64,000 nucleotides of DNA from Syntrophales bacterium (GCA_040767195.1 JAXGPA010000004.1:173738-237737); one strand, 5' to 3'. Counted from the first letter of the stretch, positions 52,401 to 61,400 are shown. Made by a program: the numbers.

Positions 52401-55400
52401 GCCGAAACCCGGGGAAACCGGGCCCGTAACGTCGTGCGCCTCTTCGTGAGCCCACCCTTCCGGGGCCGATCCGCCGGGGGCGCTTCAAAGGGGAGATCAT
52501 GAATGTCATCCGGTTCGCCGCTTCCCTGAAACGACGGCTTTTCCCTCCCGCCGTTCTGAGGCGCCTGGTACGAGAAGGAACGTATCAGCCCCGGCGTCCC
52601 GCCTGTTCCCGTCAACCGGGGGACACGGACATTTTCACGGATGTGGAAGACCCCCGTTCCCTTTTGCGGTCCTTCGGTCCCGCCTGGGACGCCCGCTTCA
52701 AAGACCTCTTTCTTCCCCATCACGAGATTCTCATAAAAATCAACCTGAACACGGCGGACCCCTACCCGGCGTCCACGGACCCCGGGATGCTTGCCGCCCT
52801 CATCGACTTTCTTCAGGAAAAAGGCTGCCGAAATATCCGGGTCGGGGACTGCTCGTCCATCCGGGCCCTCCCCACCGCGAAGGTGGCCCGGAAAGCAGGC
52901 ATCCCGGAGGCCCTTTCGGGCAGGGCTCCCTTCATCCCTTTCGATGACGGGCCCTGGGTGTCCATTCCCGTGGACGGGTACTTTCTGAAGCAGGTCACTG
53001 TCCCCCTGGCGGCCGTGACGGCGGACCGGCTCATTTTTCTGGCCAATATGAAAACCCACAACGAATCGGATTTTTCCCTGGGGATGAAACTTTCCGTGGG
53101 GCTCCTCCACCCCCTGGAGCGATACCCCCTTCACCGGGACCACCTCCGGGAAAAGATCGCCGAACTCGTTCTCGCCGTCCCGCCCGACCTGACCCTCATC
53201 GACGGCCGAACGGCCTTCGTCACCGGGGGACCGGACAGGGGCGAGACGGCCCGTTGCGGCGCCGTCGTCGTCGGCACCCATGTCGTCCAGGCGGACCTGG
53301 CCGCTTACGGCATCCTTTACGAGGCGAAAAAAAGGCTCGACCGCCTCGGTGCCTTCACGGAAGACCCCTTCGGGATGGTCCAGTTTGCCCACGCGAAAAG
53401 GGTTGTCCTGTGAAATTTCTTTTCATCACCCCTCTCACCGATTACGGGGTCCGCCCCATGAACACCTGGGCTCCCGTGGGAATCCTTTCCATGGCGGCCT
53501 CCCTGAAAGGGGAAGGCCACGAGGCGGCCCTTTTCGACCGCCATGCCCTTTTCTCCAGTCACGGTCTCGGCCGGGACAGGATCGACGGGGCCATGGCCGA
53601 AGCGGTCCGGACCTTCCGGCCCGACGTCATCGGGTTCCAGACACTCTCCCCTCTGATCCACGACACGGTAAGCTGCGCCGCCCTCCTGCGGCCTCTCTTT
53701 CCCGGCGTCATGATCGCCGGGGGTCACCATGGAACGGCCCTGCCCGAATTGACGCTGCGAAGGATAGAAGGGCTCGACGGCGTCGTCGCCGGCGAGGGTG
53801 AACAGGCCCTGGTCCGCTTCGCCCGGGGGGAAGACCCCCGGGACATCCCCGGCTTCTGGTGGAAAGACCGGGACGGCGGGATCCGGCACACCCCGCCGGT
53901 CCAGGTGGCCCCCCTGGACGACCTGCCCTTTCCCGACTACACCCTCCTGGACGGACGCTTTTATCTCCAGAGAAACCACAGCGCCATCCGGGGGCACTTC
54001 CTCTCCTCCCTTTGCGTCGTCACCTCCCGGGGGTGTGTCAGGCGCTGCGACTTCTGCTGCGAGTCCCTCACCTACGGCCGGGGGGTCCGGTTTCACAGTG
54101 CCCGCTACGTGGCTGAAGGCGTCCGGGAACTTCTCTACCGCTACCCCATCGACGGCCTTTATGTTCACGACAACGATTTTCTCATCAACCGGAAAAGGGC
54201 GGAAGAAATCTGCGAGCATTTCAGCGCCATCAGGCGGAACCGTCCCTTCCTGTTTTCCATCCAGGCCCGGGCCGAGCGCGTCGACAGCGACATGGTCCGG
54301 CGCCTGAAGGCCGCCGGCTGCGCCCTCATCGAGATCGGCGTGGAATCCGCCCTTCAGGAGAATCTCGACAGCGTTCGAAAGGAAACGACGGTGGCCGAGG
54401 CCGAGGAGGCCATCGCCCGGTGCCGGGAGGGAGGGATTTCCGTCCACGCCAACATGATCACGGGTTTCGAGGGGGAAACGATGGAAAAACTGGAAAAGGA
54501 AATCGCGTGGATGAAAAAAGTCCGGCCGGACACGTTCTCCTGGTTCCCCCTGGAAATTCACCCGGGCACGGCCCTCTACGAGAGAAGAGGGGACGGGTTT
54601 TTCGAACGATCCCCGTGGACCCCGGAAAACATCCGGACATTCTACCGGGGCGCCTCGCTGTCCCCGATTCCCCCGGCGGAAAAAGGACGGTGGATGAAAA
54701 GCCGTTACCAGCCCTTGAGGAGACGGGCCTATTTTCGCCACCTTTTCAGAAAAAATTACCCCCGGAAACTCTTTCCCCTGCTTTTCATGAAAGGGCGGCG
54801 GGAAATCCTGAAACTCCGCGACCGGTTCGACCGGTTCAGGAACCCGGGATCGCCCTGAATCGGGATTTCCGCAGCGGGCGCCCCCGGTCCGGCGCGACAG
54901 GGGGCCGCTAAGTTCCGGACCCGGGCCGCTTCCTCACCCGGTACCGGTAAAAGGTCCCCAGGGCTTTCACTCGTTCTGCCCAGTCGTCGATGAGAAAAAA
55001 CTTGACCGCCCGCTCCGCCCACACCGTGAGCGGTCGCGACCGCAGCGCCAGCCTCTCCGCCGGGAAAAGACCCCGTGTCACCACCCCGGGTTTCAGGGCC
55101 TCCAGGACCGGCGCGGGAACGGCCAGCCCCAGGGGGTCCCGGAGGAATCGCAGGGGGTGATAAAGGGCGCTCCCGATGCCCTGTTCCCCCGCCTGGGTCA
55201 GCACCGCCTTCCAGTCCACGGGCCGTTTTTTGTCCTCCATGATGAGGCCGATGTCCACGAGGCTGATGAGCGGGCTGAAGTGGTGGTGGGACATGAGATG
55301 AACACACTGGTAGGGTAGAAGAAGGGTCGGGTCCAGGCCGAGGAAGGAGGCGCCGCCGCCGTTTCCGATTTCGTGAACGCGCTTCCAGGTGTCATCACCG

Positions 55401-58400: not shown

Positions 58401-61400
58401 AAAGGGCGAGAGACCGGAAAAGACAGGGCCGCTTGACCCTGAAGCACCCGATGAGGATGAAATCCAGGAGATCCCGGTAGATTTCCGCCCTTTTCCGCTC
58501 TTCCCCGCTGAGAACGTGATTCTTTTCCCCTTCACCGTCCAGGGATCTCAGAAGATCAGGGAGGGAACGGTGGTGAAGCCGGCAGGAAATACCGACGAGG
58601 TCCACCAGAATGGAAAAGGCGGCCGCACTCGCGCCGGGCTGGAGAAGGCAAAGGATTTTCCGCCTTCTTCTTCTATTCATGAACCTCGACGAGACCTTCC
58701 TTCAACAAGTCCTGGACGATCTCCAGGAGATCCTTCCGGGAAACCTCGCTGTCCACATCATACCGTTCCAGGAGCGCACCGTGAATTTCCGAGAGCTTCC
58801 GGCGGCCGTCAAGGGATTCCCAGAAAAACCGCCCGACCTCGTTCACGGTGTAATAGTAACCGGTGCCCAGGTTCAGAAGGACACCGTCTTCGTCCACCTG
58901 CCGCCAGGCCACTTTCCCGCTTTTTCGAAAGACCGCCTCCCAGGGGTCCATAGACGCTCTCCTTTCCTTTTTTCCTTTCCCGTATCGACAGCTTCGGGAA
59001 AAAAGCCCTCTCCCACGATCTTTTCAAGATTTTTCGCGATCACATCCCTGCTTACATGAAAAAAGGCCTGCCTTCAAGAAAAATGGTGTGGCCACGTGCC
59101 GGGATGTGGTATGGATTTTTTGTCTGATGAAACAGGATCGACGGGAGGGACGGGATGAAAAGTCCGCGGGCCGTGCTTTTCGACTACGGCGGCGTTCTTG
59201 CCGAAGAGGGGTTCGCCCTGGGCCTTCGGGCCATCGCCGACGTGAACGGCCTTCCCGGCGATGATTTTGTCAAAAAAGGCCACGACCTGGTCCACGAGAC
59301 GGGGTTTGTTACAGGACAGGTTCTCGAAAAAACATACTGGGAAACGGTCCGGGCCGAAACGGGGATTTCCGGCGGCGACGATGCCCTGCGACAGGAAATC
59401 CTCTCCCGTTTCACTCTCCGGAGATGGATGATCGATCTTCTCGGGGATCTCCGGGACAGGATTCCCCTCCTGGGGATCTTGAGCGACCAGACGAACTGGC
59501 TCGAGGAACTCAACGAACGGGACCGTTTCTTTCGCCACTTCGACCGGGTGTACAACAGCTTTTACCTGGGAAAAAGCAAGCGGGACCCCGCCCTGTTCGA
59601 CCATGTTCTTCGGCTTCTCGAAATCCCGGGGGAAGACGTCCTCTTCGTGGACGATCACGCCGGAAACTGCGAAAGAGCAACGCAGGCAGGCATGAAGACG
59701 ATTCATTTTACCGGAAGGCGCCCGTTCCTGTCGGAATTGGAAAAGCGGGTCCCCTCCTTCAAATGAGGGCCGAGCCGTAAAAAGGAGCATCCAATGACCA
59801 GCGGACCCAAGGAAATCAAGGTGAATTTCCCCCCCTCGCTCCACGGGGGGGTTTACGCGAACAACACCGTCATCACCCACACCAGGGAGGAGTTCATCCT
59901 GGATTTCATCATGGCGGCCCCGCCCGCCGGCTCCGTCACCGCCCGGGTCGTCGTGAGCCCCGGCCACGTGAAGCGCCTTTTAGCCACCCTGATGGAAAAC
60001 ATTTCCCGGTACGAGCAGAAATACGGGGAAATCCCCAAGGCGGAAGAACCCCCGGGGACGTTGCGGATCAATTGACCCGGTTTCGCCGGGCCTTCCCGAT
60101 CCCAGGCAGGCGGGCTCAAAAATCATCTTCCCGGGGATTCCCCCGGCGGGGGACGGAAAACCAGGGCCCGGACAGCGTGGTAATCCTCCCCGTCGATCCA
60201 GTGAATCTCTATTCCCCGCCTTTCCATCCGCCGGAACCAGGTCTCCTGGCGCTTGGCAAACTGGTGAATCCGGGTGTTCAGGACCTGAAACATCTCGTCA
60301 AGGGAAATCCGGCCCTGAAGATGGAGGCTGACCCACCGGTACTCGAGACCCAGCCGGTGAAGCTGTTCCCAGCTCACGCCGCTCCGGCGGAGGCCCCGCA
60401 CTTCCTCGATCATGCCCTCCCGGATCCGTTTTTCCAGCCGCCTTGTGATTCGCTTCCGGAGGACCGGCCGGTCCCAGCGCACCCCGATGACGAGGGGCCG
60501 GCTGACCGTTGCCGCGGGGTCTCCCGCCTCCCGTCCCTTTCCGGACCCTTCGGCAATTTCGATGGCCCGGATCAGTCGACCCCGATCCCGAAGATCCGTC
60601 GTATTGTGAAGGGCGGGGCGGAGAGCCAGGAGCCGCCTTTCCAGGGCGCCGTCATCAAGACCTTCCAGTTCCTCCCGAAGGGCTGGGTTTTCCGGGACTT
60701 CCGCGAGAGCGTAGTGGAGGAGAACCGATTCGAGATAAAGACCCGTCCCCCCCACGAGGACAGGAAGAACCCCCCTGGATCGCAGGCGTGTAAAGCAGGC
60801 CGTGAATCGCTTGCGGAATTCGAAAACACTGAACTCTTCCAGGGCCGGATCGGCGACGTCAATGAGATGGCAGGGAATCCTGCGCCCCTGGACGACGTAT
60901 TCCGACAGATCCTTCCCCGCTCCGATGTCGAGTCCCTGGTAAACCTGGCGGGAGTCGGCGGAAATGATCTCCGACCCAAGTTCGTAAGCGAGCCGCGCGG
61001 CGAGCCTGGTTTTTCCGGAGGCCGTCGGCCCGAGGATGACGATGAGATCCCAGGGTTCCCGGGTCATGGAAAGATTCGGGGGGTCGCTTTTCACGGACGC
61101 CTCGTCATCTCCTGATCTTCCGGATCCCTATGACATTCGGCACAAGAGGCAGGGCATACCCTTCGTCGCCTTCCAGAAAGGACAGTGTCGCCCGGTCCGG
61201 CATGTCTTCGGGAAGGTCGGCGATGAAAAGGCCGGCGTCCTGCCCGCCCTCCACGTACATGGCATTTCGAATGTTCAGGGGAAGCTCCAGGAGGTGTTCG
61301 GCGAACTCGTGGACATCCCGGGGCTGCCGGGAAAAAATGAAAAGAACCTGGCCGTCGTCGTCCATGGCGATGGCGGCGGCGCTGAACCGCCTTTCACCGG

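What a model noticed while it worked through the whole genome (the two positions that open the first line are those of the whole stretch)
52499..58951. Ten dispersed lasso-leader peptides and a cyclase-less B1/B2-kinase-nucleotidyltransferase-rSAM cluster
The genome encodes ten paralogous 37-45 aa peptides with a lasso-type leader (YEKPxLxxxGKLxDVxx, then the core; Thr at -2 in 2 of 10) and very short hypervariable Gly/Ser/Pro-rich cores of 5-15 residues (C10:104195-104314, 104352-104480, 108426-108554, 108565-108693, 108929-109066, 109077-109196, 109393-109524; C7:254162-254275, 254313-254441; C9:65502-65627; two of them uncalled). Their likely maturation genes lie elsewhere, at C8:226236-232688: DUF362, B12-rSAM, NTP_transf_5, HprK-like kinase, SPASM-rSAM, lasso-type B2 protease, PqqD/B1. 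No lasso cyclase is in the cluster and only 3 of 10 cores have Asp/Glu at position 7-9, so the products are predicted to be leader-cleaved, tailored linea [...]
Evidence so far: NF033521 lasso leader 23.9 bits over cut-off 19; ten copies by six-frame motif scan and profile. The same peptide family lies inside related clusters of three other genomes: G082 (B12-rSAM, DUF362, 6 peptides, HprK-like, PqqD, NTP_transf_5), G123 (DUF362, B12-rSAM, 3 peptides, NTP_transf_5, HprK-like, B2, PqqD), a Deltaproteobacteria MAG (SPASM at the contig start, HprK-like, 8 peptides, B12-rSAM, DUF362); no Asn_synthase among the 10, 9 and 7 flanking ORFs scanned. g01813: HprK-related kinase A 80.6 bits (cut-off 200); g01815: lasso B2 30.4 (cut-off 33); g01816: lasso PqqD 49.6 (cut-off 80). 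ESMFold2 complex of g01816 with the peptide: ipSAE 0.69 against best control 0.01 (a mark reached by [...]
(Added by a program. Inside this text positions count along the whole contig: contig position 173,738 is position 1 of the stretch shown here. "Call 12" and the like, gene names such as g00115 and contig names such as C1 are that model's own, and its searches are not shown. The text may have been shortened before it was handed on; [...] marks where a part breaks off. The agent that wrote the report below was given it as the finding of a first reader that could run no searches.)

Follow-up and report, generated by a model that had tools for sequence, protein, structure and literature searches.

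The report
Cyclase-free lasso-leader short peptide library
An anaerobic bacterium keeps ten scattered genes for very short, variable peptides and one cluster of enzymes that most likely cut, phosphorylate and further decorate them without making a lasso ring, which extends a peptide family first described in 2026 to a new protease and to radical-enzyme modules.

Summary
Confirmed. The window holds a seven-gene cluster (DUF362, B12-radical SAM, PF14907 nucleotidyltransferase, HprK-like kinase, SPASM radical SAM, B2 protease, PqqD). Ten lasso-leader peptide genes lie on three other contigs. PqqD, B2 and the nucleotidyltransferase are single-copy in this 98.8% complete genome, and relatives carry the same peptides inside the cluster. 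It is not a lasso system: 3 of 92 precursors have a usable ring residue plus tail, and G082 (100% complete, six precursors) has no cyclase match. New here: Ser/Thr is enriched at core positions 3-5 (80 of 91; shuffles 54.6±4.1), the site phosphorylated in LppA and BsfA. An LGC[TS] tail occurs in all 6 genomes with the SPASM orthologue and in none of 6 without it. Best reading: linear, B2-released, Ser/Thr-phosphorylated short peptides with optional radical tailoring. This is a variant of the 'linear polyphosphorylated peptides' (Popov 2026), which use a different protease, leader and exporter. No chemistry was tested. Bolder reading: the nucleotidyltransferase ligates the phosphopeptide to surface glycan. 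The scan noted similar cyclase-less cassettes on other DNA, one with nearly this architecture (e1-3226152).

The parts
52499..53413 (+). DUF362 protein, 304 aa, fold of the lactate racemase (LarA) N-terminal region; accessory that travels with the B12-radical SAM enzyme
   Evidence: Pfam PF04015 131.8 bits; model pLDDT 93; Foldseek and VIA hits are LarA/Mar2, Z 18.4, rmsd 3.6 A, 222 aligned; invariant K80 N82 C118 H187 K197 H204 H212 in 88 homologues
53410..54858 (+). B12-binding radical SAM enzyme, 482 aa; GTG start overlaps the DUF362 stop; probable C-methyltransferase
   Evidence: PF02310 + PF04055; C209/C213/C216 invariant in 94 homologues; 45% orthologues only in G082 and G123 among 401 phylum genomes, both with precursor arrays; no NCBIfam equivalog cut-off reached
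54908..55993 (-). PF14907 nucleotidyltransferase (PsmN/LppN-like), 361 aa
   Evidence: 150.9 bits; G110, R124, D128, D130 invariant in 26 sequences; model matches nucleotidyltransferase folds such as MenT1, LnuA, ANT(2'')-Ia and weakly FKRP; single copy in genome
55990..57051 (-). HprK-like peptide kinase, 353 aa
   Evidence: TIGR04352 80.6 bits, below cut-off; H170, K191, D208, D209 invariant in 19 sequences, matching the His-Lys-Asp-Asp motif of lasso kinases (PMC9266682); profile hits HPrK structures
57048..58061 (-). Radical SAM/SPASM enzyme, 337 aa; paired with precursors ending in an LGC[TS][RK]x tail
   Evidence: PF04055 + PF13186; auxiliary cysteines kept and a supported clade (97/97) of 8 rows; co-occurrence 6 of 6 and 0 of 6 genomes
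58225..58680 (-). Lasso-type B2 leader protease, 151 aa
   Evidence: PF13471 44.2 bits over cut-off; NF033537 30.4 vs 33, 7 of 7 tested relatives over cut-off; C86, H120, E132 conserved in at least 90% of 16; single copy
58673..58951 (-). Discrete PqqD/B1 RiPP recognition element, 92 aa; first gene of the minus-strand operon. Its ten inferred substrates lie outside the window: C10:104195, 104352, 108426, 108565, 108929, 109077, 109393; C7:254162, 254313; C9:65502; a formyltransferase lies at C9:65874
   Evidence: PF05402 71.7 bits; only PqqD in the genome; precursors:

Best explanation
This is a cyclase-free RiPP system built on lasso-type leader handling that makes a small library of short linear phosphopeptides. 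Step 1 (inferred from motif and single copy): PqqD binds the Y(-17)xxP(-14)xL(-12) leader of all ten precursors. Step 2 (inferred from LppK, BsfK, PsmK): the kinase phosphorylates, probably more than once, a Ser/Thr at core position 3-5. Step 3 (inferred from PsmN; weakest core step): the nucleotidyltransferase caps that phosphate with a sugar or nucleotide. Step 4 (inferred from B2 homology and intact Cys-His-Glu): B2 cuts after residue -1 and frees a 5-15 residue core with no ring. Optional modules: the SPASM enzyme acts only on precursors with the LGC[TS][RK]x tail, most likely forming a Cys thioether; the B12 enzyme with DUF362 most likely C-methylates; the formyltransferase formylates the new N-terminus or the sugar. 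Shown here: genes, motifs, linkage and co-occurrence. Not shown: any reaction, product or biological role.
For: Single PqqD, B2 and PF14907 gene in a 98.8% complete genome. Kinase orthologues: 13 genome and 41 metagenome loci; in the 42 best of these plus 8 others, PqqD/B2/kinase/PF14907 recur in shuffled order with 1-9 precursors inside. Precursors away from the cluster also occur in G403, G405, G406. Of 92 distinct precursors: Thr(-2) 73, Gly(+1) 46, median core 8 aa, C-terminal Ser 6, ring residue with a tail of 4 or more 3. Ser/Thr at 3-5 in 80 of 91 against 54.6±4.1 in 5000 within-core shuffles, none reaching it; Ser4 34 against 14.0±3.2. No Asn synthase among 207 unlabelled neighbours in 25 loci except two QueC cross-hits. 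No cyclase match in G082, G405, G406, G407. LGC[TS] tail in G000, G401, G402, G404, G405, G406, all with the 42-62% SPASM orthologue; absent in G082, G123, G403, G407, G408, G409, which lack it at E<=1e-30. G405 and G406 keep a second PqqD-SPASM pair, in G405 directly followed by three tail peptides. Precedents: LppK polyphosphorylates Ser3 of a linear core (PMC13381572); BsfK phosphorylates Ser3 and BsfB2 accepts Ile(-2) (PMC10368454); PsmN-dependent hexose on phospho-Ser (PMC6993621).
Against: No biochemical test. In G000 only 2 of 10 leaders have Thr(-2); others have Val, Met, Ile, Ala or Gly, so some may be cut poorly or in another register. G000's B2 is just under the NCBIfam cut-off. LppK did not accept S3T or S3Y, yet 2 G000 cores have only Thr and 1 only Tyr at 3-5, 1 has none there, and 16 of 24 cores in one clade have no Ser. 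The precursors are paralogues in about seven clades, so the shuffle and co-occurrence counts overstate independence. Completeness of G401-G412 is not given, so absences there are weak. 10 of 14 genomes do have Asn-synthase-like genes, G000 has two, and in G404 one precursor lies beside one (448.7 bits to the ordinary glutamine-dependent model). No exporter is in the G000 cluster. LppN gave no product in its heterologous host.
Confidence: 0.72

Rival explanations
1. Same early steps, but the end product is a conjugate. The kinase builds Ser-triphosphate, the nucleotidyltransferase uses it as an NTP surrogate and moves peptidyl-phosphate onto a sugar hydroxyl of a lipid-linked or surface glycan. 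The peptides are then a variable surface decoration, not free metabolites.
For: FzmF/FzmK make a triphosphate-like species that nucleotidyltransferase FzmU ligates (PMC13622209, preprint). PsmN products are Ser-P-hexose and -dihexose. LPP clusters sit in capsule loci and no product was found in the native host. Wzx flippases flank the cassette in L047, L050, L058, a GT-C protein in L076, a GT4 in L017. Stray precursors in G404 and G406 lie beside 31% homologues of G000's C6 polysaccharide-locus genes. The fold neighbours include ANT(2'')-Ia, LnuA and FKRP.
Against: G000, L043, L048, L049, L065 have no such neighbour. The flippases and GT-C are not orthologous to one another or to G000's C6 genes, apart from L050/L058 at 25%. 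ABC transporters lie in or beside the cassette in L055, L057, L079. Fold hits are weak (E 2e-4 to 0.06) and generic. I did not test whether FzmU is a PF14907 protein.
Confidence: 0.2
2. The B12-radical SAM/DUF362 pair and the formyltransferase do not touch the peptide backbone; they make or modify a small molecule (sugar, hydroxy acid) that the nucleotidyltransferase then attaches. This is compatible with the core pathway and rivals only the tailoring steps.
For: DUF362 has the LarA hydroxy-acid racemase fold (same Pfam clan per PMC11770544). The formyltransferase scores best on sugar-nucleotide formyltransferase models. No core residue co-varies visibly with the B12 enzyme. The B12 and DUF362 families (106 and 120 clusters) are larger than the close kinase family (25).
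Against: The B12 orthologue is confined to precursor-bearing genomes in the phylum sample (3 of 3 at 45% or more) and is embedded in the cassette in different orders. B12-radical SAM methylation of RiPP side chains is common (established knowledge).
Confidence: 0.3
3. The peptides are lasso precursors cyclised in trans by one of the two Asn-synthase homologues (C6:240295, C1:252990).
For: Both lack the N-terminal Cys; 3 of 10 G000 cores have Asp/Glu at 7-9; one G404 precursor adjoins an Asn synthase.
Against: NF033535 scores 186 and 116 bits against a cut-off of 525, and both score higher on ordinary amidotransferase models. They sit in a polysaccharide locus and beside corrinoid-methyltransferase-like genes. 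3 of 92 cores fit a lasso. G082 has six precursors and no homologue.
Confidence: 0.04
4. The dispersed ORFs are decaying relics or regulatory decoys of the RRE and no product is made in this genome.
For: One copy has a premature TAG; Thr(-2) is mostly lost in G000; the same-genus relative keeps only three.
Against: All six transcription units have a TTGAC hexamer 62-86 nt upstream, four share a terminator hairpin; nine of ten frames are intact; all catalytic motifs are intact; Ser/Thr position is kept in 8 of 10.
Confidence: 0.04

Closest known systems
Linear polyphosphorylated peptides (LPP; lppA-K-B-S-D-N) of Bacillota, Popov et al., Nat Commun 2026, PMC13381572
   Same: Discrete RRE, YxxP leader, HprK-like kinase, uncharacterised NTP transferase, no cyclase, hydroxyl acceptor near the core N-terminus (Ser3 there, positions 3-5 here), links to polysaccharide loci.
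   Different: B2 cysteine protease instead of SipW-like LppS; lasso-spaced leader with Thr(-2) instead of YxxPxVLxHQxIxFETxxS; cores of median 8 aa, up to 12 precursors per genome, often dispersed, against 1-3 precursors of 35-200 aa; no MsbA-like exporter in this cluster; SPASM, B12-radical SAM/DUF362 and formyltransferase modules; delta-proteobacterial and other hosts. The paper's main text has no occurrence of 'radical', 'SPASM', 'cobalamin', 'proteobacteri', 'Desulfo' or 'formyl'.
Phosphorylated lasso peptides: paeninodin (PadeK), pseudomycoidin (PsmK/PsmN), Bsf of Bradymonas (BsfK, Ser3, Ile-2)
   Same: Split B1/B2, leader spacing Y-17/P-14/L-12/T-2, kinase with His-Lys-Asp-Asp, PsmN-like transferase with a DxD pair; Bsf shares the Ser3-type site.
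   Different: No macrolactam cyclase, cores too short and without ring residue, C-terminal Ser in only 6 of 92, radical SAM modules.
Sacti-/ranthipeptide-type radical SAM/SPASM systems with discrete RRE (StsB, PapB models)
   Same: SPASM enzyme with auxiliary cluster cysteines, lasso-like RRE motif, Cys-bearing precursor that co-occurs with the enzyme.
   Different: One Cys in a fixed C-terminal LGC[TS][RK]x tail appended to a hypervariable core; scores far below those equivalogs (StsB 100 vs 625); shares machinery with a kinase pathway.
Fosfazinomycin FzmF/K/U ligation (preprint PMC13622209)
   Same: RRE, YxxP precursor, kinases and a nucleotidyltransferase acting on a peptide; model for NTP-surrogate chemistry.
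   Different: There the kinases activate a phosphonate and an Asn-synthase-like enzyme modifies the C-terminus; neither is present here; homology of FzmU to this protein was not tested.

Membership tests
Lasso peptides | YxxPxL leader with discrete B1 RRE | tested here: met
Lasso peptides | B2 transglutaminase-like cysteine protease with catalytic residues | tested here: met
   PF13471 over cut-off; C86/H120/E132 conserved; 7 of 7 relatives over NF033537 cut-off; G000 itself 30.4 vs 33
Lasso peptides | Thr at leader position -2 | tested here: inconclusive
   73 of 92 in the family but 2 of 10 in G000
Lasso peptides | Macrolactam cyclase (Asn synthase homologue) in the cluster | tested here: not met
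   None in the window cluster or among 207 neighbours in 25 loci; no match genome-wide in 4 of 14 genomes
Lasso peptides | Asp/Glu at core 7-9 followed by a threadable tail | tested here: not met
   15 of 92 have the residue, 3 of 92 with a tail of 4 or more; median core 8 aa
LPP (Popov 2026) | Discrete RRE + HprK-like kinase + NTP transferase, no cyclase | tested here: met
   definition
LPP (Popov 2026) | SipW-like signal peptidase I as leader peptidase in the cluster | tested here: not met
   The cluster has a B2 protease and no S26/S24 peptidase gene; the rest of the genome was not searched for one
LPP (Popov 2026) | MsbA-like exporter in the cluster | tested here: not met
   None in or beside 52499-58951; present in L055, L057, L079
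LPP (Popov 2026) | Leader consensus YxxPxVLxHQxIxFETxxS | tested here: not met
   Consensus here is YxKPxLxKxxxLxD[IV]TA
LPP (Popov 2026) | Polyphosphorylation of a Ser near the core N-terminus | not testable with these tools
   Position signal present; chemistry needs an assay
Sacti-/ranthipeptides | Radical SAM/SPASM enzyme paired with Cys-bearing precursors | tested here: met
Sacti-/ranthipeptides | Cys-S to carbon thioether cross-link | not testable with these tools
   Needs mass spectrometry and NMR
SynChlorMet, GeoRSP and HPr-rel-A systems (NCBIfam) | Component proteins reach the equivalog cut-offs | tested here: not met
   ScmC 26.5/125, ScmD 35.9/100, ScmE 103/400, GeoRSP 110/400, HprK_rel_A 80.6/200

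The most novel reading that the evidence does not exclude
The kinase and PF14907 enzyme form a ligation pair: the kinase turns a core Ser/Thr into a triphosphate, and the transferase uses the peptide itself as the 'nucleotide', joining it by a phosphodiester to a surface glycan or its lipid carrier. The ten hypervariable cores, some further cross-linked or methylated by radical enzymes, would be a genetically encoded, switchable peptide coat. This would also explain the hexosylated pseudomycoidin, the silent LppN and the capsule-locus location of LPP and paeninodin clusters.
Probability: 0.2. Interest if true: 0.88.

Novelty: new variant of a known kind. Interest (0 to 1): 0.6.

Why it matters
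It extends the 2026 LPP concept to a B2-protease branch in uncultured anaerobes with natural libraries of up to 12 ultrashort cores, evidence that this machinery tolerates almost any core that has a Ser/Thr at 3-5. It gives an uncharacterised SPASM clade a precise predicted substrate motif (LGC[TS][RK]x), and places a B12-radical SAM/DUF362 pair and a formyltransferase in a RiPP context. Short, synthesisable substrates make the open question of what PsmN/LppN-type PF14907 enzymes do directly testable.

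Tried and rejected
Pyrrolysine read-through of the TAG in the C10:104195 copy: rejected. PylS best score 30.6 bits against 178, no PylB, no CUA tRNA among 39; it is read as a truncation. A hidden precursor in the window: none by either profile. Complex prediction of the B12 enzyme with DUF362: no verdict, score 0.00 in two runs, no controls folded; not evidence either way. The PqqD-peptide complex was not re-run. PDB sequence searches for DUF362 and the PF14907 protein found nothing significant; the wide structural search for the PF14907 model was not obtained. Expression: four runs, contigs only. RNA run X15 has short contigs over three precursor genes but also over neighbouring genes, so this shows nothing on transcription. 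A DNA contig in X6 has other letters in one core region, a hint of strain variation. Plasmids: 9 weak kinase hits, none covering 80%. ESM Atlas: only unnamed, ScmC or HprK clusters. G000's C6 GT-C, Mur-ligase-like and Wzx genes are not blast orthologues of the accessory genes in L076, L077, L047, L050. Loci L089-L100 (weak partial matches) were not annotated; L044-L046, L051 (duplicate of L017) and L081 were left out of the counts, five hits without the motif were dropped, and L054 and L057 were also left out of the shuffle test. One search covers only precursors in fetched loci (G402 8 of 9 matches, G408 2 of 3, G409 2 of 4) and omits G410-G412. Literature: ten searches found no paper on a B2-type cyclase-less kinase cassette with radical SAM enzymes; the library lacks most subscription papers, Kretsch 2023 was not available, and I read no supplements, where LPP co-occurrence tables may list such clusters.

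Full report
Observation. The window is G000:C8:173738-237737 of a 2.39 Mb genome, 98.8% complete. Positions 52499-58951 hold two convergent units: DUF362 and a B12-radical SAM enzyme on the plus strand, and PqqD, B2, SPASM radical SAM, HprK-like kinase and PF14907 nucleotidyltransferase on the minus strand, most with overlapping starts and stops. The ten precursors exist as stated on C10, C7 and C9. A profile finds exactly these ten, with the next hit at E=5.4. They form six small units, each with a TTGAC hexamer 62-86 nt upstream; four share a terminator hairpin. The closest kinase relative by record title is a Syntrophaceae MAG (L049, 69%, syntenic), and runs holding the DNA come from digesters, sludge and sediment.

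Link between cluster and peptides. The genome has one PqqD, one B2 and one PF14907 gene, all in the cluster. I annotated the best 42 and 8 others. PqqD, B2, kinase and PF14907 recur in varied order with one to nine precursors inside, some nearly identical to those of G000. Dispersal is a family trait: G403, G405 and G406 also have precursors on other contigs, up to 12 per genome. The system is patchy: 6 of 401 phylum genomes hit the peptide profile, of which G000, G082 and G123 have arrays, and 3 of 61 close relatives.

Not a lasso. Among 92 distinct precursors the leader has exact lasso spacing (Thr(-2) 73, Gly(+1) 46), but the median core is 8 residues and only 3 have Asp/Glu at 7-9 with a tail of four or more. 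None of 207 unlabelled neighbours in 25 loci is an Asn synthase, apart from two QueC cross-hits. Four of 14 genomes have no lasso-cyclase match at E<=1e-10, among them G082 (100% complete, six precursors); only G410 passes the cut-off, on another contig. G000's two homologues score 186 and 116 against 525. Against this, one G404 precursor lies beside an ordinary glutamine-dependent Asn synthase.

What the cores conserve. Ser or Thr stands at positions 3-5 in 80 of 91 cores, against 54.6±4.1 in 5000 within-core shuffles; Ser4 occurs 34 times against 14.0±3.2. The sequences are paralogues in about seven clades, so this is not an independent-sample probability, but the signal holds within each clade. 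C-terminal Ser, the paeninodin site, occurs in 6 of 92. LppK and BsfK both phosphorylate Ser3. The kinase keeps His170, Lys191, Asp208, Asp209, B2 keeps Cys86, His120, Glu132, and the transferase keeps Asp128 and Asp130, like the PsmN pair needed for hexosylation. A difficulty: LppK rejected Thr and Tyr, and one clade here is mostly Thr-only.

SPASM module. Two G000 precursors, and a third truncated by a TAG, end in LGCTR[FL]. Such tails occur in all six genomes with a 42-62% SPASM orthologue and in none of six precursor-bearing genomes without one. G405 and G406 were a real test: their main cassettes have neither, but each has a second PqqD-SPASM pair, and each has four tailed precursors. These enzymes form one supported clade and keep the auxiliary cysteines. 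The tail sits at a variable distance after an ordinary core, so it looks like an appended recognition and reaction site. A Cys thioether is the most likely reaction by analogy with sacti- and ranthipeptides (established knowledge); it is untested. Completeness of G401-G412 is unknown.

B12 enzyme, DUF362, formyltransferase. In the phylum sample the 45% orthologues occur only in G082 and G123. DUF362 accompanies the enzyme in L017, L043, L048, L050, L052, L053 and L072 and has the LarA racemase fold (Z 18.4). C-methylation is the default guess; action on a sugar or small acid is a live alternative. A formyltransferase follows the C9 precursor and has homologues inside other cassettes.

Mechanism. 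Most likely (0.72): RRE binding, Ser/Thr (poly)phosphorylation, capping by the PF14907 enzyme, B2 release of a linear 5-15-mer, with optional radical tailoring. Genes, motifs and co-occurrence are shown; all reactions are inferred. The bolder reading (0.2) takes the fosfazinomycin ligation, where a nucleotidyltransferase uses a kinase-made triphosphate surrogate, as a model: the phosphopeptide would be ligated to surface glycan. Wzx, GT-C and GT4 neighbours in five loci and the lack of an exporter here fit; their absence from other loci and ABC transporters in three loci do not.

Comparison. The closest family is LPP (PMC13381572): it works alike, but three defining features fail here (peptidase, exporter, leader consensus), so this is a variant and not a member. 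It also fails lasso membership on cyclase and ring residue. The LPP paper came to me through earlier scan notes, which report similar cyclase-less cassettes in at least 10 genomes; e1-3226152 describes nearly this architecture on other DNA. Those notes are unchecked and I do not count them as support.

What I read. PMC13381572: abstract, parts 1-2 of 12, sections 9 and 12, a term search. PMC13622209 (preprint): passages and Discussion. Passages only: PMC6993621, PMC10368454, PMC9266682, PMC10885120, PMC4289311, PMC12710340, PMC7470986, PMC11770544, bioRxiv 2021.04.07.438883. No supplements. Ten searches found no description of this variant; RRE-Finder notes in general that many lasso-type RREs lack peptidase and cyclase and about 300 sit with radical SAM enzymes.

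Verdict. Real, coherent and undescribed in the searchable literature in this form; a new variant of a known kind. Interest 0.6; 0.88 if the ligation-to-glycan reading holds.

Noticed in passing
G000 C10:104195-104341 (L001:7196-7342): One precursor has an in-frame TAG after its core; the frame goes on to an LGCTRF tail like two paralogues. No pyrrolysine machinery, so it turns a tailed precursor into a tail-less one.
   Followed up: yes
G000 C9:65874-66971 (L003:9875-10972): Formyltransferase directly after the C9 precursor; 38-41% homologues lie inside cassettes L066-L069, L071, L073, L083 and 51-53% orthologues occur in G405 and G406.
   Followed up: partly
L150 (G405:C217), L151 (G406:C50): A second, stand-alone PqqD-SPASM pair; tailed precursors in these genomes have Y-x-K-[ML] in place of YxxP, suggesting a dedicated RRE that discriminates two precursor types in one cell.
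   Followed up: partly
L109, L110, L111, L121, L122, L123 (G407-G409, Nitrospira-type records): Same leader with a different core type: two Cys or one Cys and a C-terminal LWYxW motif, no SPASM orthologue, some beside ABC transporters.
   Followed up: no
L052, L053, L072 (next to the B12 enzyme); L077: ATP-grasp ligases (LdmS-like, 224.8 bits vs 475) co-oriented with the B12 enzyme; L077 has a Mur-ligase-like gene between a precursor and PqqD.
   Followed up: no
G000 C6:235676-257068 (L170): Polysaccharide locus with GT-C, Mur-ligase-like, Asn-synthase-like, GT2, Wzx and five genes with little or no Pfam match and atypical codon scores.
   Followed up: partly
G000 C1:252990-259117: AsnB-like gene without the N-terminal Cys downstream of genes that look like corrinoid protein and trimethylamine-methyltransferase homologues (labels recalled from sequence appearance, not from a family search).
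   Followed up: no
L044 (G372), L046 (G273), L045 (G360): L044 and L046 are lasso-like loci with an Asn synthase beside the precursor (L044 also B2 and a radical SAM); L045 has PqqD, a kinase and two longer precursors with no cyclase seen.
   Followed up: no
L019, L020, L153, L163: Other PqqD-kinase-SPASM-PF14907 cassettes with different SPASM clades; L019 has an S24/S26-type peptidase and an ABC-2 exporter, nearer to the LPP layout.
   Followed up: no
P0058 (Dtox_1591): A 50% DUF362 homologue occurs in cultured Desulfofarcimen acetoxidans DSM 771, at a locus tag distant from its two reported lasso clusters; its neighbourhood could not be fetched.
   Followed up: partly
window 47296-50175: NrdD/NrdG-type anaerobic ribonucleotide reductase pair near the cluster; syntenic in L049, which lacks the SPASM, B12 and DUF362 genes and has one precursor in their place.
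   Followed up: partly
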